Of a stretch of DNA of 64,000 nt, positions 27,786 to 57,770 are shown one piece after another (within the stretch, counting starts at the first letter, position 1; the number at the start of each line of letters is the position of its first letter). The translations under genes were made by a program, and so were the position numbers. Under the pieces are notes generated by a model, which was given only the letters and a program-made list of their open reading frames with translations, was not told the DNA's origin and ran no database searches. The stretch is from IMG/VR virus record IMGVR_UViG_3300032294_002823; one strand, written 5' to 3'. This DNA is from a virus.

Positions 27786-27819
27786 GTAGTGTCTTTATAC
27801 TCAGAGATGGTTGAAACTT

Positions 27820-46673: not shown

Positions 46674-46933
46674 TGATTACACGATTTGATTTGGAAGATA
46701 TGTTGATGAAGTGCTGGCATGTGACTGACGACATTGACCTCGTGGTCACGATGGTAGGAAACATGGATATCAACGCACGGGATAAGGATCGACTCTTGAA
46801 CATTCTTATTGGATTGAAGGAGTTGTATAACGCTCGCCATAGTGCAACGTTCGCTGTATTTGAAGACCTTGTGGGTCGAGGTGTCTTTCCAAAACCCCAT
46901 TGGGACCAGTCCTCATTTAATCCCCCTGTTTGA
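46673..46933 (+). CDS. Hypothetical protein
   Basis: RFDLE...CW.VTDD...N.LIGL..LY. Confidence 0.7.
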   Translation: MITRFDLEDMLMKCWHVTDDIDLVVTMVGNMDINARDKDRLLNILIGLKELYNARHSATFAVFEDLVGRGVFPKPHWDQSSFNPPV

Positions 46934-46944
46934 TTAGAGGTAAT

Positions 46945-47832
46945 ATGATTATTGTAGATTATAGCCAGACGGCAATTAGCACTCTCATGGCAGAGCTTCG
47001 TGGGCGGACTGACGCAGAAATCAGTACGCCACTTATTCGCCATATGATTATTAACGCACTACGCAGCTATAAGCTGAAGTATGGAAAAGAGTTTGGGGAA
47101 ATTGTTATTGCCTGTGATAATAAACATTACTGGCGCAAGAAGATGTTCCCATATTACAAGGCAAATAGAAAGAAGGCGCGAGATGATTCTGGTTTCGACT
47201 GGCATGCCATTTTCGAGGCGTTGAATCAAATCAAGCAGGAACTTGCCGAGCATTTCCCCTATCCTGTTGTTGAGGCGGAAACGGCAGAAGCCGATGACAT
47301 CATTGCATCACTGGTAATTTGGTCACAGGATCATGACCTTGTTCAAGAAGGTCTTGATATGGTCCCGCAACCTGTGTTGATCCTATCAGGCGACCATGAC
47401 TTCACACAGCTTCAGCGTTACAAGAACGTGAAGCAGTATAGCCCCATCCACAAGAAGTGGGTGAAGGCGGAAGAAAGCATTGATAAGATTGTCATGGAAC
47501 ATATTCTATTGGGTGACAAGGGTGACGGTGTACCTAACTTTCTTTCACCGGACGATGTGTTTGTAAGTGGTGGTCGGCAGAAGCCTATTCGTAAAAAGGA
47601 TTTGGAAGAATGGAAGAAGCTACCCATCTCACATTGGGATGGTACACCCCATGAGGCAAACATTCGTCGTAATGCCAATTTGGTGGACTTGCGAAATATC
47701 CCAGAGGAGATTGGCCAAACTATTATAAATAACTTCACATCTCAAAAGGATGTTCGGGATAAATCACAATTGCTAAATTATTTTATTGCTCACAAGATGA
47801 AGAATCTCATGGAGCACATCACGGAGTTCTGA
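46945..47832 (+). CDS. rnh: T4-type RNase H (5'-3' exonuclease)
   Basis: IVDYSQ, YWRK..FPYYKANRK, EADDII, SGDHDFTQL, GDKGDGVPN. Confidence 0.95.
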   Translation: MIIVDYSQTAISTLMAELRGRTDAEISTPLIRHMIINALRSYKLKYGKEFGEIVIACDNKHYWRKKMFPYYKANRKKARDDSGFDWHAIFEALNQIKQELAEHFPYPVVEAETAEADDIIASLVIWSQDHDLVQEGLDMVPQPVLILSGDHDFTQLQRYKNVKQYSPIHKKWVKAEESIDKIVMEHILLGDKGDGVPNFLSPDDVFVSGGRQKPIRKKDLEEWKKLPISHWDGTPHEANIRRNANLVDLRNIPEEIGQTIINNFTSQKDVRDKSQLLNYFIAHKMKNLMEHITEF

Positions 47833-48350: not shown

Positions 48351-48390
48351 TACCCTGGGGCTTGACAAATGAGTCCCAGGGTATTATATT
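48351..48390 (+). terminator. Terminator-like hairpin fused with the first tRNA-array promoter
   Basis: taccctggggcttg-acaaa-tgagtcccagggta then TTATATTT; contains TTGACA 48362 and TATATT 48385. Confidence 0.65.
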
Positions 48391-48431
48391 TAAGTATAGT
48401 GAAAAACAACAAAAAAGTTTCAAAGTAGGGC

Positions 48432-48459
48432 TTGACAAACGAAGGAACTGTGTTAGATT
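48432..48459 (+). promoter_or_regulatory. Second (tandem) tRNA-array promoter
   Basis: TTGACA-16 nt-TAGATT with an A-rich upstream tract. Confidence 0.7.
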
Positions 48460-48496
48460 ACATATGTGTTCGCTAATTGACAACTACAGTACTTAC

Positions 48497-48568
48497 GCCG
48501 CGTTCGTCTATCGGTTAGGACGCTAGACTTTCACTCTGGTAAGATGGGTTCGATTCCCATACGCGGTA
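48497..48568 (+). tRNA. tRNA-Glu(TTC)
   Basis: Cloverleaf, anticodon loop ctTTCac. Confidence 0.92.
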
Positions 48569-48571
48569 CTT

Positions 48572-48746
48572 CTCGTCAACTTTGTAGGGTGATTTGACGT
48601 TAAATGCAGAACTCTACCGCTATTCATATTCGGCGCAGGAATATGGGCTTGGCAACGTGTCGGATGTTGCAAAAGGTGAGGGGGAAGTAGGCGCGACTAC
48701 TGACCACCTTGGGTAACTAGAAACTACCCGAACATACTCCCCCTCT
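48572..48746 (+). ncRNA. Candidate structured ncRNA with two pseudoknots
   Basis: Eight predicted helices in ~175 nt between tRNA-Glu and tRNA-Gln; no credible ORF. Confidence 0.6.
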
Positions 48747-48748
48747 AC

Positions 48749-48819
48749 TGCCCTCTCGTATAATGGCAATACAGTTGACTTTGGATCAACGAATCGTGGT
48801 TCGATTCCATGGAGGGCAA
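48749..48819 (+). tRNA. tRNA-Gln(TTG)
   Basis: Cloverleaf, loop ctTTGga. Confidence 0.92.
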
Positions 48820-48858
48820 TGTAGTACCCGTCAATAAAAAACAAACAAAGGAGATAAT

Positions 48859-49029
48859 ATGCGTAATATGATTTTTGCAGTAGCACTTGTTGGTCTTGCC
48901 GCTTGTGGTAGCAAGGAAGAAACCGCAGTTGATACCACAGTTGCCGCCCCTGCTGATACGGCAGCTGCTGTAACGGTTCCTGACAGTGCAGTAACCAGCG
49001 CACCACTTGACACAGTGGTAGCCAAGTAA
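48859..49029 (+). CDS. Small lipoprotein (56 aa, below ORF-track cutoff)
   Basis: MRNMIFAVALVGLAA-C lipobox; Ala/Thr/Asp/Pro-rich body; RBS AGGAG. Confidence 0.8.
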   Translation: MRNMIFAVALVGLAACGSKEETAVDTTVAAPADTAAAVTVPDSAVTSAPLDTVVAK

Positions 49030-49032
49030 TAA

Positions 49033-49054
49033 AGTAGGTCCTTCGGGACCTACT
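49033..49054 (+). terminator. Stable cUUCGg hairpin after the lipoprotein gene
   Basis: agtaggtcc-TTCG-ggacctact; no U-tract, so may be a stabiliser or processing signal. Confidence 0.55.
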
Positions 49055-49057
49055 CAC

Positions 49058-49130
49058 GGGTCCATAGCTCAGCTGGGAGAGCGTCCGCTTTGCAAGCGAA
49101 AGGTCGTCGGTTCGATCCCGACTGGATCCA
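49058..49130 (+). tRNA. tRNA-Ala(TGC)
   Basis: Cloverleaf, G3:U70, loop ttTGCaa. Confidence 0.93.
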
Positions 49131-49134
49131 TATT

Positions 49135-49208
49135 GGGTGGTTAGCTCAGTTGGTTAGAGCATCTCGTTTACACCGAGAGGGTCGGGGGTTCGAGTCCCTC
49201 ACTACCCA
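49135..49208 (+). tRNA. tRNA-Val(TAC)
   Basis: Cloverleaf, loop ttTACac. Confidence 0.94.
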
Positions 49209-49222
49209 TAACAAGGAGAAAC

Positions 49223-49438
49223 ATGAATACAGTTACCATACATGCTCATGTAAAGACACTTGACAATTGTATATGGATTGTGCATATTAATGATGTGCGA
49301 CATGAGGCAACTGATGTCATCATCAATTGTAAATCATACACAACAAGAAAATCAGAAAAAGATAAAATAGGTATGTGGAGAATCATATGTCACCCTGAAC
49401 GGGTGTCATGGCAAGACAAAACATGTATTCTTGATTAG
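49223..49438 (+). CDS. Hypothetical protein
   Basis: RBS AGGAG; fills gap between tRNAs. Confidence 0.6.
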   Translation: MNTVTIHAHVKTLDNCIWIVHINDVRHEATDVIINCKSYTTRKSEKDKIGMWRIICHPERVSWQDKTCILD

Positions 49439-49521
49439 GCTCTGGTGGCGGAATGGTATACGCGGCGGTCTCAAAAACCGCTTCCCACCCGGGATTGCGA
49501 GTTCGAGTCTCGCCCGGAGCA
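49439..49521 (+). tRNA. tRNA-Leu(CAA)
   Basis: Class II cloverleaf, loop ctCAAaa. Confidence 0.92.
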
Positions 49522-49524
49522 TAA

Positions 49525-49609
49525 GGACAGTTGGCAGAGTGGTCTATTGCAGCGGTCTTGAAAACCGCCGTACTGAAAGGTACCGAGAGTTCGAATCCCT
49601 CACTGTCCG
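49525..49609 (+). tRNA. tRNA-Ser(TGA)
   Basis: Class II cloverleaf, loop ctTGAaa, G discriminator. Confidence 0.92.
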
Positions 49610-49630
49610 TGACTTTATCATGAGGTACTG

Positions 49631-50005
49631 ATGCCTTATAAAATTACAAATTCTGAAAAGAAGGATGTATCTGATAAAACCTATTGGATGAAAACGCTAC
49701 ACAATGGGAAAAAGATATATCTGGAAGATGAAATATGGTATCGGTCGGGTGAGGTGATTGTTGAAGATGACCCCCGTGAGAATGGTTGGAAAGAAGGTGA
49801 ACCATTAGTTGCAGGTGATTTTAACATCACAGACCATAACTTAAATGATGGATGTTGGTCAGATAGGTATGGGGTGGAAGAGTTATCGAAAAAAGAACAG
49901 AAACTTCTTGAAGAAGTAATGTTCTTGGATGAGGCAGGTTGGGAAGCATATGACTCAGAGATTACATTCTACGGTCCTGTAGAAATTGAAGAAGTAGATG
50001 AATGA
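49631..50005 (+). CDS. Hypothetical acidic protein
   Basis: RBS GAGG; ORF between tRNAs. Confidence 0.7.
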   Translation: MPYKITNSEKKDVSDKTYWMKTLHNGKKIYLEDEIWYRSGEVIVEDDPRENGWKEGEPLVAGDFNITDHNLNDGCWSDRYGVEELSKKEQKLLEEVMFLDEAGWEAYDSEITFYGPVEIEEVDE

Positions 50006-50078
50006 GCGTCGGTAGCTCAATTGGTAGAGCACTGGTCTCCAAAACCAGGGGTTGGGGGTTCGATTCCCTCCCGGCGTG
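50006..50078 (+). tRNA. tRNA-Trp(CCA)
   Basis: Cloverleaf, loop ctCCAaa. Confidence 0.92.
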
Positions 50079-50081
50079 TGC

Positions 50082-50164
50082 GCGCTCATGGCGGAACTGG
50101 CAGACGCACCAGACTTAGGATCTGGCGGTGAAGAACCGTGGGGGTTCAACTCCCTCTGGGCGCA
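50082..50164 (+). tRNA. tRNA-Leu(TAG)
   Basis: Class II cloverleaf, loop ctTAGga. Confidence 0.92.
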
Positions 50165-50172
50165 TGAAGGGC

Positions 50173-50201
50173 TTGACAAATGAAGTACACTGTAGTATAT
50201 T
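50173..50201 (+). promoter_or_regulatory. Internal tRNA-array promoter
   Basis: TTGACA-17 nt-TATATT. Confidence 0.78.
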
Positions 50202-50242
50202 ACATATGTTAATTGAAAATGAATGAATGGCAGTAATGAAAT

Positions 50243-50325
50243 GCTCCGATGGTGAAATCGGTAAACACAGGAGACTTAAAATCTCCCGCCCCAAAGGCTT
50301 GTCGGTTCGATTCCGACTCGGAGCA
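50243..50325 (+). tRNA. tRNA-Leu(TAA)
   Basis: Class II cloverleaf, loop ctTAAaa. Confidence 0.93.
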
Positions 50326-50336
50326 CTGTAGTAAAA

Positions 50337-50440
50337 TAGTTGGCAGTGAAGCACACCCACTTCACGTTAGCTCCCTCAATGACGGTATGAACTGGTCGTA
50401 ACACTGGTGCGTAGGGCTCCTACGGGTTCCGTCCCAACTA
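50337..50440 (+). ncRNA. Candidate structured small RNA (multi-stem junction)
   Basis: Closing stem tagttgg/ccaacta enclosing the hairpins gtgaag/cttcac, atgac/gtcgt and cgtagg/cctacg. Confidence 0.45.
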
Positions 50441-50457
50441 AGTATTAATACAGTAAT

Positions 50458-50531
50458 GCACCCCTAGTGTCAGCGGTTAGCACAAGAGACTTTTAATCTT
50501 TTAGGGCTGGGTTCGAATCCCAGGGGGTGCA
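50458..50531 (+). tRNA. tRNA-Lys(TTT)
   Basis: Cloverleaf, loop ctTTTaa. Confidence 0.9.
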
Positions 50532-50589
50532 CTTGTAGGACGATGAGCAACGGAAACCAATCAGACCTTAAGTCCACTGGTAATACATT

Positions 50590-50662
50590 CCGCCTGTAGC
50601 TCATCGGTTAGAGTGGCCGTCTTATAAACGGTTGGTAGATGGTTCAATTCCATCCAGGCGGA
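50590..50662 (+). tRNA. tRNA-Ile(TAT)
   Basis: Cloverleaf, gccgt-ctTATaa-acggt. Confidence 0.85.
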
Positions 50663-50686
50663 TTACATTATGGTACGGAGAGATAT

Positions 50687-50896
50687 ATGAAACAAAGAAT
50701 TATCAATATGCTTCGCACACAGGCCGAAGCAGAACGTGAGAAGGCGCTACTTTCATTGGAGTTATTGATGAATCATCCGGTAGGTATCGGTGACCACTCA
50801 ACAGGTGATTTTTATAAGAATGCAGAAGAAGCATTACAGATGCTTGTTGATGCCGAAGATAAGTTGGAAACATTGAATAAGTATTTTTCTGAATAA
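50687..50896 (+). CDS. Conserved small phage protein
   Basis: HPVGIGDHS motif; RBS GGAG. Confidence 0.75.
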   Translation: MKQRIINMLRTQAEAEREKALLSLELLMNHPVGIGDHSTGDFYKNAEEALQMLVDAEDKLETLNKYFSE

Positions 50897-50903
50897 AGTA
50901 GTT

Positions 50904-50975
50904 GCACGTGTCATATAACGGCTATTATCCTAGCCTTCCAAGCTAGAGACATGGGTTCGACTCCCATCACGTGCT
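50904..50975 (+). tRNA. tRNA-Gly(TCC)
   Basis: Cloverleaf, loop ctTCCaa, U discriminator. Confidence 0.92.
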
Positions 50976-50994
50976 TGTCATAAATAAGTTTATT

Positions 50995-51078
50995 GCTCCT
51001 GTCGCATAACGGTTGATTGCACTGGTTTTGTAAACCAGCACATAAGAAACATTGTGGGTTCGAATCCCACCGGGAGCT
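50995..51078 (+). tRNA. tRNA-Thr(TGT) with an unusually long variable region
   Basis: ctggt-ttTGTaa-accag; 15-nt variable region 51039-51053. Confidence 0.75.
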
Positions 51079-51091
51079 CTTAGTAGAAAAG

Positions 51092-51125
51092 TACGACCTT
51101 ATAAATAGATATATAGGAGGTCGTA
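51092..51125 (+). promoter_or_regulatory. Late promoter inside an RBS-occluding hairpin
   Basis: tacgacct/aggtcgta stem enclosing TATAAATA (51100-51107) and covering part of GGAGG and the A of ATG. Confidence 0.75.
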
Positions 51126-51514
51126 TGAATTGTAAAAATTGCAATAGTTCTATTTCAAAAATCAAATTATTTTGTGATAACAAATGTCAGCAAGCCTTTC
51201 AATATAAGAAGTCATTAGATGAATGGTTAGGTGGAAAAAATTTTATCAGAAAAGGCGGCGTATCTGTGCCTGTTTGGATGAGAAGATATTTGTTAGATGA
51301 AACAAAGCATCAATGTGTTGAATGCGGATGGGGTAAAGAAAATCAGTATACAAAAACTGTACCTCTAGACATAGACCACATTGACGGAGATGCATATAAT
51401 AATTTGAGGGAGAATCTAAGAGTCTTGTGTCCTAATTGTCATTCATTGAAAAAGACTTTTAAAAACACAGGTCGCAGAAAATCTACAAGAAACAGAAAGA
51501 ATCTGCATCCTTAG
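51125..51514 (+). mobile_element. HNH homing endonuclease in the tRNA array
   Basis: CKNC..FCDNKC zinc finger; CVECG, DIDHIDGD..NN..ENL.VLCPNCH. Confidence 0.88.
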
Positions 51515-51577
51515 CTCAATTGGCAGAGCATGTGACTCTTAATCACCAGGTTGTAGGTTCGATTCCTACAGGATGCA
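51505..51577 (+). tRNA. tRNA-Lys(CTT)
   Basis: Cloverleaf, loop ctCTTaa. Confidence 0.92.
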
Positions 51578-51580
51578 TTT

Positions 51581-51653
51581 GCGGGTGTAGCTCAGTTGGT
51601 AGAGCGCAACCTTGCCAAGGTTGATGTCGTGGGTTCGAGTCCCATCTCCCGCT
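51581..51653 (+). tRNA. tRNA-Gly(GCC)
   Basis: Cloverleaf, loop ttGCCaa. Confidence 0.93.
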
Positions 51654-51662
51654 CTTTGAATC

Positions 51663-51735
51663 GCCTCTGTAGCTCAGTTGGTAGAGCGCCAGCCTGAAGA
51701 GCTGGGCGTCGGCGGTTCGACTCCGTCCGGAGGCA
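51663..51735 (+). tRNA. tRNA-Phe(GAA)
   Basis: Cloverleaf, loop ctGAAga. Confidence 0.94.
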
Positions 51736-51750
51736 CTGTAGTACAACCAT

Positions 51751-51823
51751 TCCCAGATAGCTCAGTCGGTAGAGCAGGTGACTGTTAATCACCGGGTCGG
51801 GGGTTCAAGTCCCTCTCTGGGAG
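51751..51823 (+). tRNA. tRNA-Asn(GTT)
   Basis: Cloverleaf, loop ctGTTaa. Confidence 0.94.
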
Positions 51824-51846
51824 CTAATTTAACTTAATGAGATATT

Positions 51847-52122
51847 ATGAAAGACATTTTATTTGCAAAACCCAGAACGTTAACAGAAACAGAAGAACAC
51901 ATTATTGTGAAACGCAAGTGGTGGGCGGTGGTACTGCTGATTATTGGCGGTGTTATTCTTGCGGGTAGATTACCTGTACCTCTGTTTATTCCCTATGTGT
52001 TTTTCTTTTTTGGTCATGGAGGCATGTTACATAGCTTCTATAAGAAGCATGATTATCCCATGGTTATTGTCAATGCCGTTTGGCTACTCATTGATATGAT
52101 TGGTATGATTCGCTGGTTTTAA
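51847..52122 (+). CDS. Small membrane protein
   Basis: Three hydrophobic segments. Confidence 0.7.
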   Translation: MKDILFAKPRTLTETEEHIIVKRKWWAVVLLIIGGVILAGRLPVPLFIPYVFFFFGHGGMLHSFYKKHDYPMVIVNAVWLLIDMIGMIRWF

Positions 52123-52123
52123 T

Positions 52124-52519
52124 ATGAAAGTTTCCATTGGTCGCTATCCAAAAGATCCAAACAAAGAACGGAAGATTTCTGTGAAAATTGATCCATGGGA
52201 TACGTGGAGTATGGATGTGACATTGGCGCATATCATTCTTCCTATGCTCAAGCAATTGAAGGAAACAAAACAGGGCGCGCCATATGTTGATGACGAAGAT
52301 GTACCTGAACACCTCCGCAAATCAGCAGCTCCACCAACTGAAAATGAGTGGGATACGGATGACAATCATTTCAAACGGTGGGATTATGTTCTTGATGAAA
52401 TGATTTTTGCGTTTGAAAGTAAACAAAATTGTACTTGGGTGGAAAAATATGTAAACCAAGTACGTATCATTAATGGACTTCGATTGTTTGGAAAATATTA
52501 CGAAAGTTTATGGGACTAA
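52124..52519 (+). CDS. Conserved phage hypothetical protein
   Basis: DTWSMD.TLA.II.PML..LK....GAP...RWDYVLDEMI.AF...GL.LFGKYY..LWD. Confidence 0.8.
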   Translation: MKVSIGRYPKDPNKERKISVKIDPWDTWSMDVTLAHIILPMLKQLKETKQGAPYVDDEDVPEHLRKSAAPPTENEWDTDDNHFKRWDYVLDEMIFAFESKQNCTWVEKYVNQVRIINGLRLFGKYYESLWD

Positions 52520-52522
52520 ATC

Positions 52523-52792
52523 ATGTATAAAAAATATGAATATGAAAAGACCACACTCACCGCTCAGAGTTACAACAACAAGATTTCAGTAGAACTTCCT
52601 GCTGACATCACGTTGAATGAATTTCTTGATGCATGCCGTGTACTGGCTATTGGATTAACCTTTTGTCCTGACTCTTGGAAAGAGACCATCATTAATTTGG
52701 CTGATGAATATCGTGAACTTGATGAATATCGTGAAAAAAAATTCACACTCGGCAGTTCTGTATCTAGCACTGATGATGAATTTTTTCTATGA
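52523..52792 (+). CDS. Hypothetical protein
   Basis: ORF in operon context. Confidence 0.6.
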   Translation: MYKKYEYEKTTLTAQSYNNKISVELPADITLNEFLDACRVLAIGLTFCPDSWKETIINLADEYRELDEYREKKFTLGSSVSSTDDEFFL

Positions 52793-53148
52793 GATTTCTC
52801 ACACGAAAGCTCGTACAACCCGGTGATTTAAATGCGGGCAGCACCTTGTTTGGAGGAAGATGTTTGGCGTGGATTGACGAAGAAGCCGCAATCTACGCCA
52901 GTATTGAATTACGTCATCGTAGAGTTGTTACCAAAAGCATCTCCGCCATCAACTTCATTGCTCCTGCCTTTCAAGGAGACATTGTTGAAATTGGCGTTGC
53001 ACTAAAGAAAGTAGGCAAGACGAGCATCACGCTTGAGGTTCAGGTACGGGACTTGACAACTCAGCGTGTTATTGTTAATATTGATGAAATGATTTTTGTT
53101 GCTGTTGATGAAAATGGGAGACCGGTGAAACATGGACTCTGTAAATAA
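52789..53148 (+). CDS. Hotdog-fold acyl-CoA thioesterase (YciA-like)
   Basis: PGDLN..TLFGG..LAWIDEEA, F.AP...GDIV, VGKTSI, FVAVDENGRP. Confidence 0.9.
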   Translation: MRFLTRKLVQPGDLNAGSTLFGGRCLAWIDEEAAIYASIELRHRRVVTKSISAINFIAPAFQGDIVEIGVALKKVGKTSITLEVQVRDLTTQRVIVNIDEMIFVAVDENGRPVKHGLCK

Positions 53149-53485
53149 GTTTGTCGTTGCCACAGGTGTATGGATCATTCTCACTCTTGTTGTGTATAAA
53201 CACATAGGATGGGAAAAGGTTCGTGAATGTTATTTGTTATGGACGAAACGAGAATATTGGACCAATTATAACATTGTTGAAGCCTTGAGCTGGTTTGCCA
53301 AGGCTATTATCATTGTTCCTGGATTAATCTTCAATGTTAGTATCTGGTGGTTATATTTCTTCACGCTGTTCACAAGTTTAACCTTAATTTGGGCAAGTAA
53401 TAAAAAACTTCTCCCCACCCTAGTAGGATTCAATACATTATGGGCATGGATTAGTTGTATGGTACTTGCAAAACACATACTATGA
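53132..53485 (+). CDS. Membrane protein
   Basis: Multiple hydrophobic helices; KKLLPTLVGFN. Confidence 0.7.
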   Translation: MDSVNKFVVATGVWIILTLVVYKHIGWEKVRECYLLWTKREYWTNYNIVEALSWFAKAIIIVPGLIFNVSIWWLYFFTLFTSLTLIWASNKKLLPTLVGFNTLWAWISCMVLAKHIL

Positions 53486-55032
53486 TTCCTGATAATTATA
53501 AATTTGTTGTTGTAGGCGGCGGGACTGCTGGTTGGTTGTCAGCTCTATTTCTGAAAAAGAATATCCCCAAGGCACACATCACGGTGATTGAAAGTAGTGA
53601 TATCGGTATTCTAGGTGCGGGCGAAGGCACTGTTTGGAATTTCATTGAATTCTTGCAGAGCATTGATATTTCTCCTGGTGATATTGTGTATCATGCCCAA
53701 GGCACATTTAAAAATGGGATTAAGTTCACTAATTGGAACGGCGACGGTGAACATTATTTTCATGGATTTGCCGATCCTAGCGAAGTTACCATTGAACATC
53801 CCAAGATGCCATTCTTTGATTTTTCTTTACCACACTTAGAAGCTCTAGCGGCAGGAAAAAATTTAGATGATGTGAATTTCAGTGCACAAGTTTCTTCTAA
53901 CAATGATGTCAAGTATAAGACAAACGGAAAGAAAACTAGTGATCCCTATGAACATTTCACACAGCTTGGGCATACAGCATTACACTTTGATGCTCGTTTA
54001 TTGGCGCAATATTTAAAGAATGTTGGTGTGTCCCGTGGTATTGAATTGATAGATGCAAAGGTGACATCAGTGGCAGAAGATGTTTCCCATAACATTTCTG
54101 ATATCCAATTAGACAACGGCACAGTACTGCATCCTGATTTCGTGTTCGATTGTTCTGGATTTCATAAATTAATTCTTGGAAAGCATTATCAAGAACAATG
54201 GGAATCATATGAAAACCATCTTCCTGTAAATCGCGCACTTCCATTTTTCTTACCTCGCACGGAAGAAAAAATTCCTCCATACACCGAGGCAATTGCCATG
54301 AAGTATGGCTGGATATGGAAAATCCCTGTGGGTGAACGTTATGGGTGTGGTTATGTGTTTAATGGACGATTAATTACCGATGAACAGGCAAAACAGGAAA
54401 TTGAGGAACTTGTTGGACATGAAATCACTTCACCGAAAACATTCTCCTTCACTCCTGGAGCATTCTATCGTCCTTGGCGACATAATGTTTTGGCGATGGG
54501 ATTGGCAGCAAACTTCATTGAACCTCTGGAAGCCACAAGTATTTGGGTAACAACCATGTCACTTCGTATGTTCGTGAAATATTTTCAAGGATATCTGACG
54601 AAGAATTTTTCACACGTGGATTCATACAACAATGAAGTGCGAAATATTAATCAAGAAATTTGTGCATTCATTTATTTTCATTATCTAACGAAGCGAGATG
54701 ATACAGATTTTTGGAGAAATTTCCGCGTGAATAATACGCCTCCTGAAAAATATCATCTCTTACACACTGAATTAACATCAGGAAGATTTGAACGAAAATA
54801 TTTTGGCGTTTCAAGTTATATGCAGGTGGGTGCGGGCATTAAATATTTTGAACCACTAGAAGCAAATCAAATGTATGAATATCAGCTAGGGATTTTTGGC
54901 GCCGATAAATATAAAAATGATAAGCTATTCAAAAATTTTGAAATGGAGAAGCTCACCACTGAATGTGTTGACCATGCCTTCATTACAGAGTATATCAAGA
55001 AGCGTCACCTTGAGGTGTTAAAAGAATCATGA
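53482..55032 (+). CDS. Flavin-dependent (tryptophan-halogenase-like) halogenase
   Basis: GGGTAGW, GAGEGT, TFKNGI (catalytic Lys position), HFDA, DCSGF, GWIWKIP, FIEPLEATS. Confidence 0.9.
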   Translation: MIPDNYKFVVVGGGTAGWLSALFLKKNIPKAHITVIESSDIGILGAGEGTVWNFIEFLQSIDISPGDIVYHAQGTFKNGIKFTNWNGDGEHYFHGFADPSEVTIEHPKMPFFDFSLPHLEALAAGKNLDDVNFSAQVSSNNDVKYKTNGKKTSDPYEHFTQLGHTALHFDARLLAQYLKNVGVSRGIELIDAKVTSVAEDVSHNISDIQLDNGTVLHPDFVFDCSGFHKLILGKHYQEQWESYENHLPVNRALPFFLPRTEEKIPPYTEAIAMKYGWIWKIPVGERYGCGYVFNGRLITDEQAKQEIEELVGHEITSPKTFSFTPGAFYRPWRHNVLAMGLAANFIEPLEATSIWVTTMSLRMFVKYFQGYLTKNFSHVDSYNNEVRNINQEICAFIYFHYLTKRDDTDFWRNFRVNNTPPEKYHLLHTELTSGRFERKYFGVSSYMQVGAGIKYFEPLEANQMYEYQLGIFGADKYKNDKLFKNFEMEKLTTECVDHAFITEYIKKRHLEVLKES

Positions 55033-55625
55033 AAGTAGAACATGTATTCAACAGAAAAATTGTTCGTTTTCAATGTGATGAAGTGGAGTTTTACACCAAT
55101 GAAAATTTTCTTAATAATTTAAATAGATTGTTCAATCACCCATCAATGCGAGACAACGTTTCGAATGAACAGGTGGGCGATGCCCAAACAACAGTAGGAA
55201 AGAATTTTCTACTTCCTTTGAAGTTGCCCGGTGCGGAAAATCTAGAGCGTTGGATTCATGAACGATTAATGGAAGCAGCACCCCATTTCGTAGACTTCAC
55301 ACCCACCAGTATTCAATTTGTTCGCACATGGACAAATAAAATGTTTCGTGGGTGTGAAGGACAGACACACAATCACAAAGGCCCCAATCACGGCGTTGGT
55401 GTGTTTTATGTGAATATTCCAGAGAATGGAAGTGATTTAGTGTTTGTGCGCGATGGTGTGTACATGACAAAGATTTCAGATTATGCAATAGGTGATGTTG
55501 TATTTGCAGGAACGCGAACCGGTGAATTGGTATTACATGATACAGAAATTTCTCATGCTGTATCTGAACATGATAATGATGAACCAAGAATTTGTATCGT
55601 TGTGGAGTTCACATATATTCCATAA
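55029..55625 (+). CDS. Putative 2OG-Fe(II) oxygenase
   Basis: W.N...HNH...GVFYV...HAV......RI double-stranded beta-helix pattern. Confidence 0.7.
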   Translation: MKVEHVFNRKIVRFQCDEVEFYTNENFLNNLNRLFNHPSMRDNVSNEQVGDAQTTVGKNFLLPLKLPGAENLERWIHERLMEAAPHFVDFTPTSIQFVRTWTNKMFRGCEGQTHNHKGPNHGVGVFYVNIPENGSDLVFVRDGVYMTKISDYAIGDVVFAGTRTGELVLHDTEISHAVSEHDNDEPRICIVVEFTYIP

Positions 55626-55630
55626 CACTA

Positions 55631-55704
55631 GGGGTGGTAGCTCAGTTGGTTAGAGCATCCGACTGTCACTCGGAAGGTCGCGGGTTCGACCCCCGTCCAT
55701 CCCG
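55631..55704 (+). tRNA. tRNA-Asp(GTC)
   Basis: Cloverleaf, loop ctGTCac. Confidence 0.94.
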
Positions 55705-55705
55705 T

Positions 55706-55900
55706 ATGAAAAAAGTTAAAAGTCCTTGTGTCAAACAATGTAAACTCCAAGATGATTATTGTTTTGGTTGTTTCCGGCATATAGATGAAATTGTCAAATG
55801 GAGACACTTGACAAACGAAGAAAAAACTGTTATATTACAAGAGTTGGAACAAAGAAAAATGGCACGGTGGTCTGAACTGGCTGAGGCACCGCTCTCATAA
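55706..55900 (+). CDS. DUF1289-like small Cys-rich (Fe-S/Zn) protein
   Basis: SPCVKQC.....C.GCFR..DEI..W. Confidence 0.8.
   Translation: MKKVKSPCVKQCKLQDDYCFGCFRHIDEIVKWRHLTNEEKTVILQELEQRKMARWSELAEAPLS
55808..55836 (+). promoter_or_regulatory. Promoter for the second tRNA block (inside the DUF1289-like ORF)
   Basis: TTGACA-17 nt-TATATT, 25 nt before tRNA-Met. Confidence 0.72.
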
Positions 55901-55936
55901 GGCGGGTTTATGTGGGTTCAAGTCCCACCCGTGCTA
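55861..55936 (+). tRNA. tRNA-Met(CAT) (elongator; Ile2 not excluded)
   Basis: Cloverleaf, loop ctCATaa; lacks initiator features. Confidence 0.85.
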
Positions 55937-55944
55937 CTAACTTT

Positions 55945-56028
55945 GGGGGTGCCGCAGAGTTGGAGGACTGCAACAGACTGTAAATCTGTCGCCATTAGGC
56001 CTAGTAGGTTCGAATCCTTCCACCCCCA
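55945..56028 (+). tRNA. tRNA-Tyr(GTA)
   Basis: Class II cloverleaf, loop ctGTAaa. Confidence 0.9.
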
Positions 56029-56031
56029 TAC

Positions 56032-56105
56032 CGTCACTTAGCTCAGCTGGTTAGAGCATCCGTCTGATACACGGAAGGTCCGGGGTTCAACTCCCTGAGT
56101 GACGA
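56032..56105 (+). tRNA. tRNA-Ile(GAT)
   Basis: Cloverleaf, loop ctGATac. Confidence 0.92.
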
Positions 56106-56109
56106 CTTT

Positions 56110-56182
56110 GCCCTTGTAGCTCAATTGGAAGAGCAGGAGATTTCTACTCTCTTGGTTGTGGGTTCGAGTCCTGCCAGGGGCG
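56110..56182 (+). tRNA. tRNA-Arg(TCT)
   Basis: Cloverleaf, loop ttTCTac. Confidence 0.9.
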
Positions 56183-56187
56183 CTAAT

Positions 56188-56269
56188 GGAAGGTTCGCAT
56201 AATGGTATTGCAGCTGTCTACTAAACAGCCGACCGAAAGGTTATGTGGGTTCGAATCCCTCACCTTCCG
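56188..56269 (+). tRNA. tRNA-Ser(ACT)
   Basis: Class II body, G discriminator, gctgt-ctACTaa-acagc. Confidence 0.85.
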
Positions 56270-56294
56270 CTTTTTTCAATAGTTAGGAGATGTT

Positions 56295-56966
56295 ATGATT
56301 CTACTTCTTGGCGATATTCATGGTAACACAACACGCCTTCGTTCTGCAATTCAGAAGGCAGTGGAATGTGATGCAACCGCTCTCGTTCAAGTAGGCGATT
56401 TTGGGTTATTTCAAGGTAAACGAAATGAAGGAGAATTTTATGAAATGTGTAAAAATTCTTCAATACCTGTTTACTTCATTGAAGGAAATCATGATGATTG
56501 TAGCCGCTGGGTACGTTATGAAACAGTAACACGGGTATGGCATGATGCCAATTTGTTTTATATACCACGTGGCACGGTTATGGAAATAGATGGGCGCACT
56601 ATCGCCTTCATGGGTGGTGCTGCCAGTATTGATAAAGATATGCGTTTACGTGAAGGTTGGCATTGGGATAAAGAAGAAAATATTTCAGGGCATGAAGTAT
56701 TACGGTTATTTGAAAATGCTGAAGGAAAACAGATTGATGTATTGATTACCCATGATGTTCCTACATCTGTGTGTAAGACACATTTTGATGATAGTGGTAA
56801 ATTATATTTTGGTGTTGGCAAGGATTGGCATGATGTAAATATGGATGTGATTCAACGCATCTGGGACCGTGTGGGTAATCCCATGATTTACTCTGGGCAT
56901 ATGCATCGGTCAGTGATTGGTCCTAACTATCGTATTCTAAATATTGATGAACTATTGGCAATATGA
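56295..56966 (+). CDS. Calcineurin-like metallophosphoesterase
   Basis: GDIHG, VGDFG, EGNHD, GGAASID, ITHD, SGHMH. Confidence 0.9.
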   Translation: MILLLGDIHGNTTRLRSAIQKAVECDATALVQVGDFGLFQGKRNEGEFYEMCKNSSIPVYFIEGNHDDCSRWVRYETVTRVWHDANLFYIPRGTVMEIDGRTIAFMGGAASIDKDMRLREGWHWDKEENISGHEVLRLFENAEGKQIDVLITHDVPTSVCKTHFDDSGKLYFGVGKDWHDVNMDVIQRIWDRVGNPMIYSGHMHRSVIGPNYRILNIDELLAI

Positions 56967-57181
56967 AATTATCTGATGCCAATAATAATGAACAATTAGA
57001 AGTTATAGGATTGGAATCCAATGTGGAATATCTTGAACGATTACACTCATTGGGCATCATAGAGGGGTGTGCAATATGTCCTTTACGCAATCAAGATTCA
57101 ACAATGATTGTGGATGTTCGAGGATGTAGATATGCATTGGGAAAAGAAATTACGGAATGTATTCTTGTTAGGCGCTTATAG
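56963..57181 (+). CDS. FeoA-domain protein
   Basis: RL.SLGI..G.........V.VRG.RYALG...A/T..I.V pattern. Confidence 0.75.
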   Translation: MKLSDANNNEQLEVIGLESNVEYLERLHSLGIIEGCAICPLRNQDSTMIVDVRGCRYALGKEITECILVRRL

Positions 57182-57245
57182 CTCAACTGGATAGAGCATC
57201 TGACTACGGATCAGAAGGTTATAGGTTCGAATCCTTTTAGGCGCA
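57172..57245 (+). tRNA. tRNA-Arg(ACG)
   Basis: Cloverleaf, loop ctACGga. Confidence 0.93.
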
Positions 57246-57246
57246 T

Positions 57247-57429
57247 ATGAAAAAAACAACTGACCAAGAAATAGAGGAAATGCGTTTATCTCTGTTTCTG
57301 TTAAAATTAGAATTAGAAGGATATATTCGTGGTGATTGGTACTACGAATATCACATGACTATTGGTTATAATAAAAAATTTACCGGAAAAAAGATTCTTA
57401 GACTTGACAAAAGTGAAGAAACCGAGTAG
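57247..57429 (+). CDS. Hypothetical protein
   Basis: 60-aa ORF between tRNAs; no clear RBS. Confidence 0.4.
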   Translation: MKKTTDQEIEEMRLSLFLLKLELEGYIRGDWYYEYHMTIGYNKKFTGKKILRLDKSEETE

Positions 57430-57432
57430 ATT
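57404..57432 (+). promoter_or_regulatory. Promoter upstream of tRNA-Pro
   Basis: TTGACA-17 nt-TAGATT. Confidence 0.7.
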
Positions 57433-57441
57433 ACAATCATA

Positions 57442-57514
57442 CGGGATGTAGCTCAATTGGCAGAGCACTCGCTTTGGGAGCGAGGGGTTGCTGGTTCAAG
57501 TCCAGTCATCCCGA
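57442..57514 (+). tRNA. tRNA-Pro(TGG)
   Basis: Cloverleaf, loop ttTGGga. Confidence 0.94.
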
Positions 57515-57530
57515 CTTACAAGGAGAAAAC

Positions 57531-57692
57531 ATGAAAGAAAAAGACAGACTACCAGACATCATTGCAATAATAGCAACAATCATTTTCATTGTATTTGCAT
57601 TTGTCATTTCTGGATCCGTTGGCACCGGCAATGGTGTCAGCGAGTTACAAGGCGGAGACATTCAACACGCCATAGATACAAAACAATACTAA
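57531..57692 (+). CDS. Small single-TM protein
   Basis: RBS AGGAG; IIAIIATIIFIVFAFVI. Confidence 0.65.
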   Translation: MKEKDRLPDIIAIIATIIFIVFAFVISGSVGTGNGVSELQGGDIQHAIDTKQY

Positions 57693-57695
57693 GTT

Positions 57696-57770
57696 GGACG
57701 AGTGGCAGAGAGGCCCAATGCAAGAGTCTGCAAAACTCTAAAGCCGCCGGTTCGAATCCGGCCTCGTCCT
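57696..57770 (+). tRNA. tRNA-Cys(GCA)
   Basis: Cloverleaf, loop ctGCAaa, U discriminator. Confidence 0.92.

What the first reader, a model, noticed from the sequence alone, without database searches (positions are those of the whole stretch)
48572..48746. ~175-nt double-pseudoknot RNA sandwiched between tRNA-Glu and tRNA-Gln
Seen, 5' pseudoknot: cgtcaa(48574-79)/ttgacg(48594-99), with loop gtagggt(48584-90) pairing to actctac(48611-17). Middle hairpins: catattc/gaatatg (48625-45) and gcaacgt/atgttgc (48652-70). 3' pseudoknot: aaggtg(48673-78)/cacctt(48705-10) enclosing agtag/ctact, with loop aggggga(48679-85) pairing to tccccct(48738-44) across a gggta/taccc hairpin. The segment is GC-richer than other spacers and has no RBS-led ORF. 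Processing of the flanking tRNAs would release it as a discrete RNA from the strongest promoters. It does not match tmRNA, RNase P, SRP or 6S hallmarks that I can recognise. Inference: an undescribed phage structured RNA (ribozyme, decoy or antitoxin-like).
Basis: partly seen in the sequence, partly recalled or inferred. Interest (0 to 1): 0.78.

Follow-up and report, generated by a model that had tools for sequence, protein, structure and literature searches.

The report
New pseudoknotted RNA beside phage tRNA-Gln
A roughly 176-nt RNA with eight conserved helices, two of them pseudoknots, lies just upstream of the glutamine tRNA gene in a group of uncultured T4-like phages; it matches no known RNA family and its function is unknown.

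Summary
I found 11 distinct full-length variants in about two dozen viral and metagenome contigs, and they keep these helices through compensatory changes: 87% of cells are paired against 37-47% in slid controls, 30 of 50 pairs change on both sides, and 0 of 500 shuffles reach this. Both pseudoknots are supported.

Rfam 15 gives nothing, even at E<=10. ARAGORN finds no tRNA, tRNA-like or tmRNA gene. The element is a single-copy cassette, always 3-8 nt 5' of tRNA-Gln(UUG). It is absent from many close relatives, from cultured phages and from bacterial genomes. Its 5' half, its 3' half and the tRNA-Gln recombine independently.

The 5' half shares the P1, loop-pseudoknot and A3-linker core of pistol ribozymes. 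The 3' half has the strand order of HDV-like ribozymes. Each fails defining features, so neither is a member.

My best reading is a stable non-coding RNA cut out of the tRNA precursor, with RNase P at tRNA-Gln making its 3' end. That would make it an unrelated analogue of T4 RNAs C and D. Its function is unknown, and self-cleavage is not excluded. No expression data could be obtained. The scan had already noted this same stretch in an overlapping window (e1-5742980).

The parts
48362..48459 (+). Two tandem sigma-70-like promoter matches upstream of tRNA-Glu: TTGACA-17-TATATT at 48362-48390 and TTGACA-16-TAGATT at 48432-48459.
   Evidence: Consensus scan. These are pattern matches only.
48497..48569 (+). 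tRNA-Glu(UUC), the upstream neighbour. No CCA is encoded.
48570..48573 (+). 5' tail UUCU. Its 'UC' is invariant. It is a candidate tertiary partner of the helix C loop RGAA (48719-48722).
   Evidence: The pairs are UA:5, CG:3 and UG:3 at the variable position, with no mismatch. 95.5% of cells are paired against 25-61% in slid controls, but 56 of 500 shuffles reach this, so it is tentative.
48574..48599 (+). P1 hairpin: CGUCAA 48574-79 pairs with UUGACG 48594-99. The loop carries the 5' strand of pseudoknot PK1 (48584-90).
   Evidence: helix 1: 95.5% paired. The CGUC/GACG core is invariant and the outer two pairs covary (AU, GC, UG).
48584..48617 (+). Pseudoknot PK1: GUAGGGU 48584-90 pairs with ACUCUAC 48611-17. 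The invariant linker UUAAA (48600-04) and GA (48609-10) lie between P1 and the 3' strand.
   Evidence: helix 2: 96.1% paired, 5 of 7 pairs with changes on both sides.
48625..48645 (+). Hairpin H2: CAUAUUC / GAAUAUG.
   Evidence: helix 3: 6 of 6 pairs with double changes. One search shows different stem sequences in 7 variant groups.
48652..48670 (+). Hairpin H3: GCAACGU / AUGUUGC.
   Evidence: The stem becomes GCAAUUC/GAAUUGC in L013 and GUAAUUC/GAAUUAC in L050.
48673..48710 (+). Helix A, the second pseudoknot: AAGGUG 48673-78 pairs with CACCUU 48705-10.
   Evidence: helix 7: 92.4% paired. AAGG/CCUU is invariant and the inner two pairs covary (UA/AU and UA/GC).
48679..48744 (+). Helix D: AGGGGGA 48679-85 pairs with UCCCCCU 48738-44. 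It encloses helices B and C and crosses helix A.
   Evidence: helix 8: 4 of 7 pairs with double changes. The register slips in some variants.
48686..48701 (+). Hairpin B: AGUAG / CUACU. In its 6-7 nt loop a C (48692) and a G (48695) are invariant.
   Evidence: AGUAG/CUACU, GCGG/CCGC, ACAG/CUGU, AACGG/CCGUU, AGCGG/CCGCU. It scores poorly (helix 9) only because of an alignment register shift.
48702..48737 (+). Positions of a further 3-bp helix E (48702-04 with 48735-37). It forms in 9 of 11 relatives, as GGU/ACC or GAC/GUC. In this window only the outer G-C pair can form.
   Evidence: 87.9% paired, 0 of 500 shuffles reach this. It rests on few independent lineages.
48711..48729 (+). Hairpin C: GGGUA / UACCC. 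The loop is conserved, with core YURGAAM and invariant U, G, A, A.
   Evidence: helix 10: 100% paired, 2 pairs with double changes.
48745..48748 (+). Linker of 3-4 nt to tRNA-Gln (3-8 nt in the relatives). The expected RNase P cut at 48748/48749 would make the 3' end of the element.
   Evidence: Tail lengths are. RNase P cleavage is inferred from general tRNA biology.
48749..48819 (+). tRNA-Gln(UUG), the downstream neighbour in every variant.

Best explanation
The stretch 48570-48748 encodes a previously undescribed, compactly folded non-coding RNA of about 176 nt on the + strand.

Shown:
- It has eight covariation-supported helices in two modules. The 5' module is an H-type pseudoknot (P1/PK1) with an A-rich linker, followed by hairpins H2 and H3. 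The 3' module is a pseudoknotted junction of helices A, D, B and C, with a ninth helix E in most relatives.
- It is a single-copy cassette in the tRNA operon of a clade of uncultured T4-like phages, always 3-8 nt upstream of tRNA-Gln(UUG).
- Its two modules and the tRNA-Gln recombine independently.

Inferred:
- It is transcribed with the tRNAs from the tandem promoters at 48362-48459.
- RNase P cleavage at the 5' end of tRNA-Gln makes its 3' end just past helix D.
- 3' processing of the upstream CCA-less tRNA-Glu makes its 5' end just before P1.
- Both ends are then held in pseudoknotted helices, so it should accumulate as a stable RNA, as T4 RNAs C and D do.
- The most likely role is a trans-acting protein-binding RNA (decoy or cofactor). 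The invariant single-stranded and tertiary elements would be the recognition surface, and the variable helices the scaffold. These elements are CGUC/GACG-UUAAA, CUU, AAGG/CCUUGG, the YURGAAM loop and an AA dinucleotide. The partner is unknown.
For: - Structure and covariation.
- Strand: G-U pairs are kept on the + strand (pair types), and the fold z-score is better on + (-2.15 against -1.03).
- Not coding: the internal ORFs are not conserved.
- No known family.
- Distribution: 11 full-length variants plus 2 truncated copies. None lies elsewhere in the window or in relatives whose Glu and Gln tRNAs are 2-8 nt apart. None is in cultured phages, in further IMG/VR pattern hits or in GTDB genomes.
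- Fixed position: the element is always directly 5' of tRNA-Gln, while the upstream neighbour varies. It is tRNA-Glu in 8 variants, a 30-aa basic ORF in 2, and a 65-nt spacer in 1.
- Block boundaries: the conserved block starts 4 nt before P1 and ends 3-8 nt before the tRNA.
- Processing context: none of the 26 tRNAs encodes CCA, so every 3' end in the operon must be processed.
- Modularity: window against L001 is 99% identical in the 5' module, 65% in the 3' module, and 100% in the flanks. L045 against L094 is 56% in the 5' module, 97% in the 3' module and 75% in tRNA-Gln.
- Precedent: T4 has two small RNAs of unknown role in its tRNA region (PMC3014915).
Against: - There are no expression data, so neither the ends nor the stability of the RNA have been observed.
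- The strict adjacency to tRNA-Gln in every genomic context could equally mean a cis role in tRNA-Gln maturation.
- The structural complexity (two to four pseudoknot-type contacts in under 180 nt) and the partial resemblances to pistol and HDV-like ribozymes are what one would expect of a catalytic or ligand-binding RNA rather than a simple decoy.
- No binding partner is identified.
- Most relatives lack the element, so it is dispensable.
Confidence: 0.5

Rival explanations
1. It is a cis-acting 5' leader of tRNA-Gln. The folded element stays attached long enough to control when or how efficiently RNase P matures tRNA-Gln. Alternatively, the element-tRNA-Gln chimera is itself the functional molecule.
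For: - In all 11 variants and the 2 truncated copies the element lies in the same position relative to tRNA-Gln(UUG), 3-8 nt away. This holds although gene order around it differs and although the 3' module and the tRNA recombine independently.
- Helix D ends only 3-8 nt from the RNase P site. From general knowledge of RNase P, leader contacts are made in that range.
Against: - Most related phages have tRNA-Glu and tRNA-Gln 2-8 nt apart with no such leader, so tRNA-Gln does not need it.
- Adjacency could be inherited from one ancestral insertion, because recombination between two parents that both carry the pair preserves it.
- No alternative pairing between the element and the tRNA is conserved. 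The CCCUCU similarity between helix D and the acceptor stem occurs only in some variants, judged by my own reading.
Confidence: 0.2
2. It is one or two self-cleaving ribozymes. The 3' module would be a divergent HDV-like ribozyme cutting 5' of A48673. Alternatively, or as well, the 5' module would be a divergent pistol-like ribozyme. Either would process the tRNA operon transcript without host RNases.
For: For the 3' module:
- The strand order P1(A)-P2(D)-P3(B)-P1'-P4(C)-P2' is that of the HDV nested double pseudoknot (description in PMC10879173).
- The B loop is 7 nt in 9 of 11 variants, with invariant C at position 3 and G at position 6. GG follows helix A. C48728 is invariant, and the string CCGA followed by an invariant AA resembles J4/2 of listed theta ribozymes.
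- Theta ribozymes show that HDV-like ribozymes do process phage tRNAs.

For the 5' module:
- It shares with pistol ribozymes a P1 hairpin whose loop forms a 6-7 bp pseudoknot, followed by GUUAAAU. In pistol this A3 tract docks in the P1 minor groove (PMC6101554).

For both:
- The modular shuffling fits self-contained units.
Against: Against HDV-like:
- The pair at the would-be cleavage site is an invariant A-U (AU:11). The G-U wobble there is described as essential (PMC8495972).
- 3-6 nt separate P3 from P1', and J4/2 is 6-11 nt long. These extras pair with each other in 9 of 11 variants.
- Position 48729 is U in 4 variants.
- A descriptor requiring G1, no J3/1 and a catalytic C finds nothing in the tRNA array.

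Against pistol:
- No consistent P2 helix or 2-nt GU junction exists, judged by my own reading.
- Only 6 nt lie between the A3 linker and the pseudoknot strand, where pistol has its P2 strand.

Against all known classes:
- No HDV, pistol, hatchet, twister or hammerhead model scores even at E<=10 on 187 nt.
- Cutting at 48672/73 has no obvious use in tRNA maturation.
Confidence: 0.13
3. It is a tRNA-derived relic or tRNA mimic. The 3' module would be a degenerate T-armless tRNA-like fold: helix D as a 7-bp acceptor-like stem, B as the D arm, and E plus C as an anticodon-like arm with a 7-nt YU-RGA-AM loop. It would serve as a decoy for a tRNA-directed enzyme or nuclease.
For: - The 3' module is 66-70 nt long and is closed by a 7-bp helix.
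- The helix C loop has the U33-like and purine-37-like pattern of anticodon loops.
- T4 RNA C contains a GGTTCGAATCC T-arm-like hairpin near its 3' end, by my reading.
Against: - ARAGORN finds nothing in standard, low-threshold or mitochondrial (T-armless or D-armless) modes, apart from one spurious call in 1 of 11 variants.
- The Rfam tRNA model gives no hit in the spacer at E<=10.
- There is no T arm.
- 9-13 nt, including a pseudoknot strand, lie between helices B and C, where tRNAs have 1 nt.
Confidence: 0.07

Closest known systems
T4 RNA C and RNA D (species 1 and 2 stable RNAs, rnaC/rnaD) in the T4 tRNA gene cluster
   Same: Both are non-tRNA RNA genes of 119-139 nt embedded in the tRNA operon of a T4-type phage. 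They lie on the same strand as the tRNAs and directly next to one. Their function has stayed unknown for decades (annotation; PMC3014915).
   Different: - There is no sequence or structure likeness. The covariance model R1 finds nothing in the T4 tRNA region.
- T4 RNA C carries a tRNA-type T arm, which the present RNA lacks.
- The T4 RNAs follow the last tRNA of the cluster, whereas this RNA sits between the first two tRNAs and always before tRNA-Gln.
HDV-like ribozymes, including the tRNA-associated theta ribozymes of gut phages (PMC10879173)
   Same: - Both occur in phage tRNA contexts.
- The 3' module has the same strand order as the nested double pseudoknot.
- It has a 7-nt L3-like loop with C at position 3 and G at position 6, GG after P1', and an invariant C and AA in the J4/2-like segment.
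   Different: - An invariant A-U replaces the essential G-U at the cleavage-site pair.
- Extra nucleotides after P3 and in J4/2 form their own helix in most variants.
- P3 is 4-6 bp rather than 3.
- Theta ribozymes lie directly 3' of a tRNA with their cleavage site at its end. This element has about 100 nt of other structure between tRNA-Glu and the would-be cleavage site.
- There is no covariance-model match.
Pistol self-cleaving ribozymes
   Same: The 5' module has a 5' hairpin P1 that begins C-G, G-C, U-A. Its loop forms a 6-7 bp pseudoknot downstream, and GUUAAAU follows P1 directly. The env25 pistol has the same sequence at that point, where the A3 tract makes A-minor contacts with P1. 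Pistol ribozymes are also phage-associated.
   Different: - The P1 loop is 13-14 nt rather than just the 6 pseudoknot nucleotides.
- There is no room for a P2 strand and no evidence of one.
- There is no 2-nt GU junction and no conserved purine-32 or G40 context.
- The Rfam Pistol model gives no hit.
MALAT1/mascRNA-type 3'-end formation by RNase P (from general knowledge; not tested here)
   Same: A downstream tRNA or tRNA-like structure provides an RNase P site that would create the 3' end of the upstream non-coding RNA, and that end is then buried in a protective higher-order structure.
   Different: That system is eukaryotic, uses a triple helix rather than a pseudoknot, and is an analogy of logic only. 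Here the downstream partner is a genuine tRNA.

Membership tests
HDV-like (delta/theta) ribozymes | Nested double pseudoknot with strand order P1-P2-P3-P3'-P1'-P4-P2'. | tested here: met
   Helices A, D, B and C occur in that order and are covariation-supported.
HDV-like (delta/theta) ribozymes | G at +1 forming a G-U wobble as the first pair of P1, at the cleavage site. | tested here: not met
   The first pair of helix A is A-U in 11 of 11 variants (columns 124/164). The wobble is described as essential in PMC8495972.
HDV-like (delta/theta) ribozymes | Catalytic C as the first nucleotide of J4/2. | tested here: inconclusive
   C48728 is invariant, but it is most simply read as paired with G48712 in helix C. 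Position 48729 is C in 7 variants and U in 4.
HDV-like (delta/theta) ribozymes | P1.1: 2 bp between L3 and the two nucleotides after P1'. | tested here: inconclusive
   L3 positions 2-3 (UC in most variants, GC in the window) could pair with the invariant GG 48711-12. Neither side varies informatively.
HDV-like (delta/theta) ribozymes | The P3 3' strand runs directly into the P1 3' strand, and J4/2 is short (4-5 nt). | tested here: not met
   There are 3-6 nt between B and A', and 6-11 nt between C and D'. These pair with each other in 9 of 11 variants.
HDV-like (delta/theta) ribozymes | Match to curated covariance models or a canonical descriptor. | tested here: not met
   Rfam gives no hit at E<=10. 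My own descriptor scan finds nothing in the tRNA array.
HDV-like (delta/theta) ribozymes | Mg2+-dependent self-scission. | not testable with these tools
   This needs in vitro transcription and a cleavage assay.
Pistol ribozymes | P1 hairpin whose loop forms a roughly 6-bp pseudoknot with a downstream junction. | tested here: met
   P1 and PK1 are 95.5% and 96.1% paired, and 5 of 7 PK1 pairs covary.
Pistol ribozymes | Conserved A3 tract in the linker just after P1. | tested here: met
   GACGUUAAA is invariant in all 11 variants. The pistol feature is as described in PMC6101554.
Pistol ribozymes | P2 and P3 helices, with a strictly 2-nt junction (GU) carrying the cleavage site. | tested here: not met
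   The candidate P2 (4 nt before PK1' with CUUG after H2) pairs in only about two thirds of cells. It shows no compensatory change, judged by reading. The junction dinucleotide is GG, UG or AG.
Pistol ribozymes | Match to the Rfam Pistol model. | tested here: not met
   No hit at E<=10 on 187 nt.
tRNA, tRNA-like or tmRNA | Cloverleaf with T arm, or a T- or D-armless variant, or a tmRNA tRNA-like domain plus tag. | tested here: not met
   ARAGORN was run in standard, -ps90, -mt, -mtx and -m modes. Nothing was found except one spurious call in 1 of 11 variants. The Rfam tRNA and tmRNA models give no hit in the spacer.
Stable non-tRNA RNAs of T4-type tRNA operons (T4 RNA C/D kind) | Gene inside the phage tRNA operon, on the same strand, abutting tRNAs. 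| tested here: met
   The phage is T4-like: its RNase H is 45-46% identical to those of T4-type phages.
Stable non-tRNA RNAs of T4-type tRNA operons (T4 RNA C/D kind) | Homology to T4 rnaC or rnaD. | tested here: not met
   Model R1 has no hit on the T4 tRNA region L127, and the sequences are unlike.
Stable non-tRNA RNAs of T4-type tRNA operons (T4 RNA C/D kind) | Accumulates as a discrete stable RNA after tRNA processing. | not testable with these tools

The most novel reading that the evidence does not exclude
The element is a new catalytic RNA. It would be either a new self-cleaving class or a tandem of highly divergent pistol-like and HDV-like modules that break the accepted rules of those families. 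Examples are A-U instead of G-U at the HDV cleavage site, and an extra helix closing the P2/P3 junction. It would give a T4-like phage host-independent processing inside its tRNA operon.
Probability: 0.12. Interest if true: 0.85.

Novelty: new variant of a known kind. Interest (0 to 1): 0.62.

Why it matters
Phage tRNA operons have been known since the 1970s to carry extra stable RNAs (T4 RNA C and D). No function has ever been assigned to them.

This element is an independent and much more intricately folded example, with a ready-made comparative data set: 11 natural variants and natural module swaps. Two to four pseudoknot-type contacts in under 180 nt is a level of complexity usually seen in ribozymes, riboswitches or specific RNP cores.

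The element combines local likenesses to two ribozyme classes without belonging to either. Its 3' module is replaced between otherwise identical genomes. This makes it a concrete, cheap target for self-cleavage assays, RNase P assays, probing and pull-downs. The results could reveal a new RNA function in phage-host conflict or in tRNA maturation.

If it proves to be only a stable by-product, it still adds a new RNA family for annotating T4-like metagenomic phages.

Tried and rejected
- Known RNA families. Rfam 15 was run at the gathering threshold on the whole window, and at E<=10 on 761 nt and on 187 nt. Only the two flanking tRNAs and noise came up.
- Pistol membership was rejected: no P2 helix or GU junction, and no covariance-model hit.
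- HDV-like/theta membership was rejected on the A-U first pair, the J3/1 insert and the long J4/2. A canonical descriptor scan of the window gave only scattered hits in coding DNA.
- Hatchet. Hatchet RNA contains the same 9-mer GACGUUAAA, but its architecture differs (P1 hairpin with no loop pseudoknot, P2-P4) and Rfam gives no hit.
- tRNA-like or tmRNA. All ARAGORN modes were negative.
- Coding. The 28-aa and 40-aa ORFs are not conserved.
- Homology to T4 rnaC/rnaD. None was found.
- Mobile element with target duplication. Empty sites show no duplication.
- Extra copies or domain-only relatives. None was found in the window, in relatives lacking the insert, in pattern hits from IMG/VR, JGI metagenomes and GTDB genomes, or in cultured phages. 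Low-scoring model hits of 10-23 bits in pattern-selected loci were treated as chance.
- Link to the 30-aa basic ORF. It abuts the element in two genomes but lies elsewhere or is absent in the others, including this window.
- Link to the ligase-like/nucleotidyltransferase gene at 27811-29604. Pfam gives only DUF6267 plus a weak cytidylyltransferase match.
- Published catalogue. The element may be among the 8,495 unnamed IMG/VR candidates of PMC10690425, but no supplement is held, so this could not be checked.
- L043 and several other pattern hits were chance matches.
Full report
**Context**

The window comes from an uncultured T4-like phage.
- Its RNase H (46930-47832) is at most 46% identical to those of cultured T4-type phages, namely Stenotrophomonas, Synechococcus and Methylophilales phages.
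- It carries 26 tRNA genes on the + strand between 48497 and 57770. None encodes CCA.
- The finding is the 179-nt spacer between the first two genes, tRNA-Glu(UUC) at 48497-48569 and tRNA-Gln(UUG) at 48749-48819.
- Two tandem sigma-70-like promoter matches lie just upstream, at 48362-48390 and 48432-48459.

**Check of the observation**

- Folding energy alone is weak evidence. The MFE is -55.3 kcal/mol with z = -2.15 on the + strand, against z = -1.03 on the - strand.
- GC is 0.49-0.51, against about 0.37-0.42 in neighbouring non-tRNA DNA.
- Rfam 15 gives no match in the spacer at the gathering threshold, at E<=10 on 761 nt, or at E<=10 on 187 nt.

**Relatives**

I collected relatives in four ways.
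- The nearest held record, G001, is 94% identical over 48400-48900.
- A search with the upstream 165-aa protein gave 35 loci.
- Pattern scans of IMG/VR and JGI metagenomes used conserved strings from both halves.
- One scan covered GTDB genomes.

After removing duplicates and chance hits there are 11 distinct full-length variants and two truncated copies, from about two dozen contigs. A covariance model (R1) scores them at 127-196 bits. It finds nothing else above about 23 bits:
- not elsewhere in the window;
- not in relatives without the insert;
- not in the T4 tRNA region;
- not in any pattern-selected locus.

Cultured phages have only tRNA-Glu matches.

**Covariation**

- 87.4% of cells form standard pairs, against 36.9-47.1% when the 3' partners are slid by 1-3 columns.
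- 30 of 50 pairs change on both sides, against 8-10 in the slid controls.
- None of 500 column shuffles reaches any of the five measures.
- PK1 has double changes in 5 of 7 pairs and H2 in 6 of 6.
- Helix A keeps an invariant AAGG/CCUU core, and its inner two pairs covary.
- Helix B looks poor in that table only because the alignment shifts its register.

An automatic stem finder recovers B in every variant with different sequences (AGUAG/CUACU, GCGG/CCGC, ACAG/CUGU, AACGG/CCGUU, AGCGG/CCGCU). It recovers all eight helices in all 11 variants. G-U pairs are kept on the + strand, so the RNA is read in the same direction as the tRNAs.

Two further contacts emerged.
- A 3-bp helix E (window positions 48702-04 with 48735-37) switches between GGU/ACC and GAC/GUC in 9 of 11 variants. 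In the window and in L013 only its outer pair can form. No shuffle in 500 reaches this, but it rests on few independent lineages.
- The 5' tail UUCY (48570-73) is complementary to RGAA in the helix C loop (48719-22). The pairs are UA:5, CG:3 and UG:3 with no mismatch. 56 of 500 shuffles do as well, so this contact is tentative.

**Anatomy**

The 5' module (48570-48672) is an H-type pseudoknot.
- P1 is CGUCAA/UUGACG with an invariant CGUC/GACG core.
- A 13-14 nt loop begins with an invariant CUU and carries the PK1 strand.
- An invariant UUAAA follows P1, then four variable nucleotides, then an invariant GA, then the PK1 partner.
- Two variable hairpins, H2 and H3, follow.

The 3' module (48673-48745) is helix D enclosing hairpin B and, through helix E in most variants, hairpin C. 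The strand between B and C pairs back to AAGG(UG) just 5' of helix D, forming helix A. Invariant unpaired positions in this module are:
- C48692 and G48695 in the B loop;
- U, G, A and A in the helix C loop (core YURGAAM);
- A48731 and A48732.

**Distribution and evolution**

- In most related phages tRNA-Glu and tRNA-Gln are 2-8 nt apart and the element is absent. This includes relatives whose upstream protein is 85% and 81% identical. Clades at 100%, 75% and 71% identity have it. Empty sites show no target duplication. It therefore behaves as a gene cassette that is gained or lost like the tRNA genes themselves.
- The downstream neighbour is always tRNA-Gln(UUG), 3-8 nt away.
- The upstream neighbour is tRNA-Glu in eight variants, a 65-nt spacer in one, and a 30-aa very basic ORF in two.
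- The modules are reshuffled. The window and G001 are identical in the flanks and 99% identical in the 5' module, but only 65% identical in the 3' module. L121 joins nearly the same 5' module (95%) to a third 3' type. L045 and L094 share a 97% identical 3' module, but have 56% identical 5' modules and 75% identical tRNA-Gln genes.
- The two halves are thus separable units with no variant-specific pairing between them.
- An HNH endonuclease gene inside the array (51017-51514) may promote such local exchange, as homing endonuclease genes in T4 tRNA regions do. This is inference; T4 segB is shown.

**Comparison with known RNAs**

1. T4 RNA C and RNA D are the closest known kind. They are small RNAs of unknown role encoded in the T4 tRNA region (PMC3014915). 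They share neither sequence nor structure with this element.
2. Pistol ribozymes share several features with the 5' module. These are a P1 hairpin beginning C-G, G-C, U-A, a loop pseudoknot, and the string GUUAAAU immediately after P1. In the env25 pistol the conserved A3 tract docks into the P1 minor groove (PMC6101554; PMC4604425). The rest of the pistol fold is missing: there is no supported P2, no strictly 2-nt GU junction, and no Pistol model hit.
3. HDV-like ribozymes, including the phage tRNA-associated theta ribozymes, share their strand order with the 3' module. They also share a 7-nt L3-like loop with C at position 3 and G at position 6, a following GG, and an invariant C and AA in the J4/2-like segment (PMC10879173). 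Against membership:
   - the pair at the would-be cleavage site is an invariant A-U, although the G-U wobble is described as essential (PMC8495972);
   - extra nucleotides after P3 and in J4/2 form helix E;
   - one candidate catalytic position is U in four variants;
   - no HDV-type model or canonical descriptor matches.
4. Hatchet ribozymes contain the same 9-mer GACGUUAAA but have a different architecture.
5. ARAGORN finds no tRNA-like or tmRNA gene in any mode.

**Interpretation**

What is shown is a real, conserved, multi-pseudoknotted RNA family that is new to Rfam and confined, as far as these collections go, to one clade of uncultured T4-like phages.

What is inferred is the following.
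- The RNA is co-transcribed with the tRNAs.
- RNase P at tRNA-Gln defines its 3' end a few nucleotides past helix D.
- 3' processing of the CCA-less tRNA-Glu defines its 5' end a few nucleotides before P1.
- With both ends locked into pseudoknotted helices it would persist as a stable RNA.

I put about 0.5 on this processed, trans-acting stable RNA reading, with a protein partner as the most likely target. I put 0.2 on a cis role as a leader controlling tRNA-Gln maturation, because of the invariable adjacency. I put about 0.13 on self-cleavage and 0.07 on a tRNA-mimic decoy. No expression data could be obtained, so the ends, the abundance and any cleavage remain to be measured.

**Novelty and score**

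The kind of element, an extra structured RNA in a T4-type tRNA operon, has been known for decades. This family, its fold and its modular evolution are new. A possible listing among the unnamed candidates of PMC10690425 could not be checked. The same stretch was noted earlier in this scan from an overlapping window, also with a pistol-like comment (e1-5742980). I had reached that lead independently (note), and on testing it I found it only partly met. Interest is 0.62.

Noticed in passing
L101:1384-1476 and L094:9192-9284 (also L109:3998-4087 and L121:27-113 on the - strand): A conserved 30-aa, extremely basic ORF (MPHPKKCGKGRRKVGSKKRRNRWKNRKRNH) lies inside the tRNA arrays of several related phages. 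In two of them its stop codon abuts the 5' end of the element. It is not present in this window. It could be an RNA-binding peptide.
   Followed up: partly
window 51017-51514 (+): An HNH endonuclease ORF (Pfam PF01844) sits between tRNA-Thr and tRNA-Lys(CUU). In relatives such as L004 these two tRNAs are 4 nt apart. It is a likely homing endonuclease in the tRNA array, like segB in T4.
   Followed up: partly
window 50995-51079 (+): tRNA-Thr(UGU) is 84-85 nt long, with about 12 extra nucleotides in the variable region. The closest relatives (L004) have an ordinary 74-nt tRNA-Thr of different sequence at the same place. L013 also has the long form.
   Followed up: partly
window 48497-57770: None of the 26 phage tRNA genes encodes the 3' CCA, so all depend on 3' trimming and CCA addition.
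   Followed up: yes
window 50327-50457 (+): This is a 131-nt non-tRNA gap between tRNA-Leu(UAA) and tRNA-Lys(UUU), which another reader flagged as a second structured RNA. Its fold energy is no better than that of shuffles (z = +0.22). The gap is 9 nt in L013. Covariation was not examined.
   Followed up: partly
window 48859-49055 (+): A 56-aa ORF with a lipoprotein-type signal (…LVGLAAC GS…) and its own ribosome-binding site lies between tRNA-Gln and tRNA-Ala. A GC-rich hairpin follows at 49032-49055. It is a protein gene embedded in the tRNA operon.
   Followed up: no
L050:4708-4895, L077:9578-9759 and L121:1490-1672 (type III 3' modules): The 3' strand region of helix D reads AUCACCUCC in L050. 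By my memory this is identical to nine nucleotides of the E. coli 16S rRNA 3' tail. It pairs with GGAGG, so the helix looks like a Shine-Dalgarno/anti-Shine-Dalgarno duplex. The likeness is absent from the other types and is probably coincidental.
   Followed up: no
window 27811-29604 (+): This 597-aa protein matches DUF6267 over residues 9-397 (E = 1.8e-104) and has a weak cytidylyltransferase-like match at its C-terminus. Another reader flagged it as a ligase-nucleotidyltransferase fusion. I found no link to the RNA element.
   Followed up: partly
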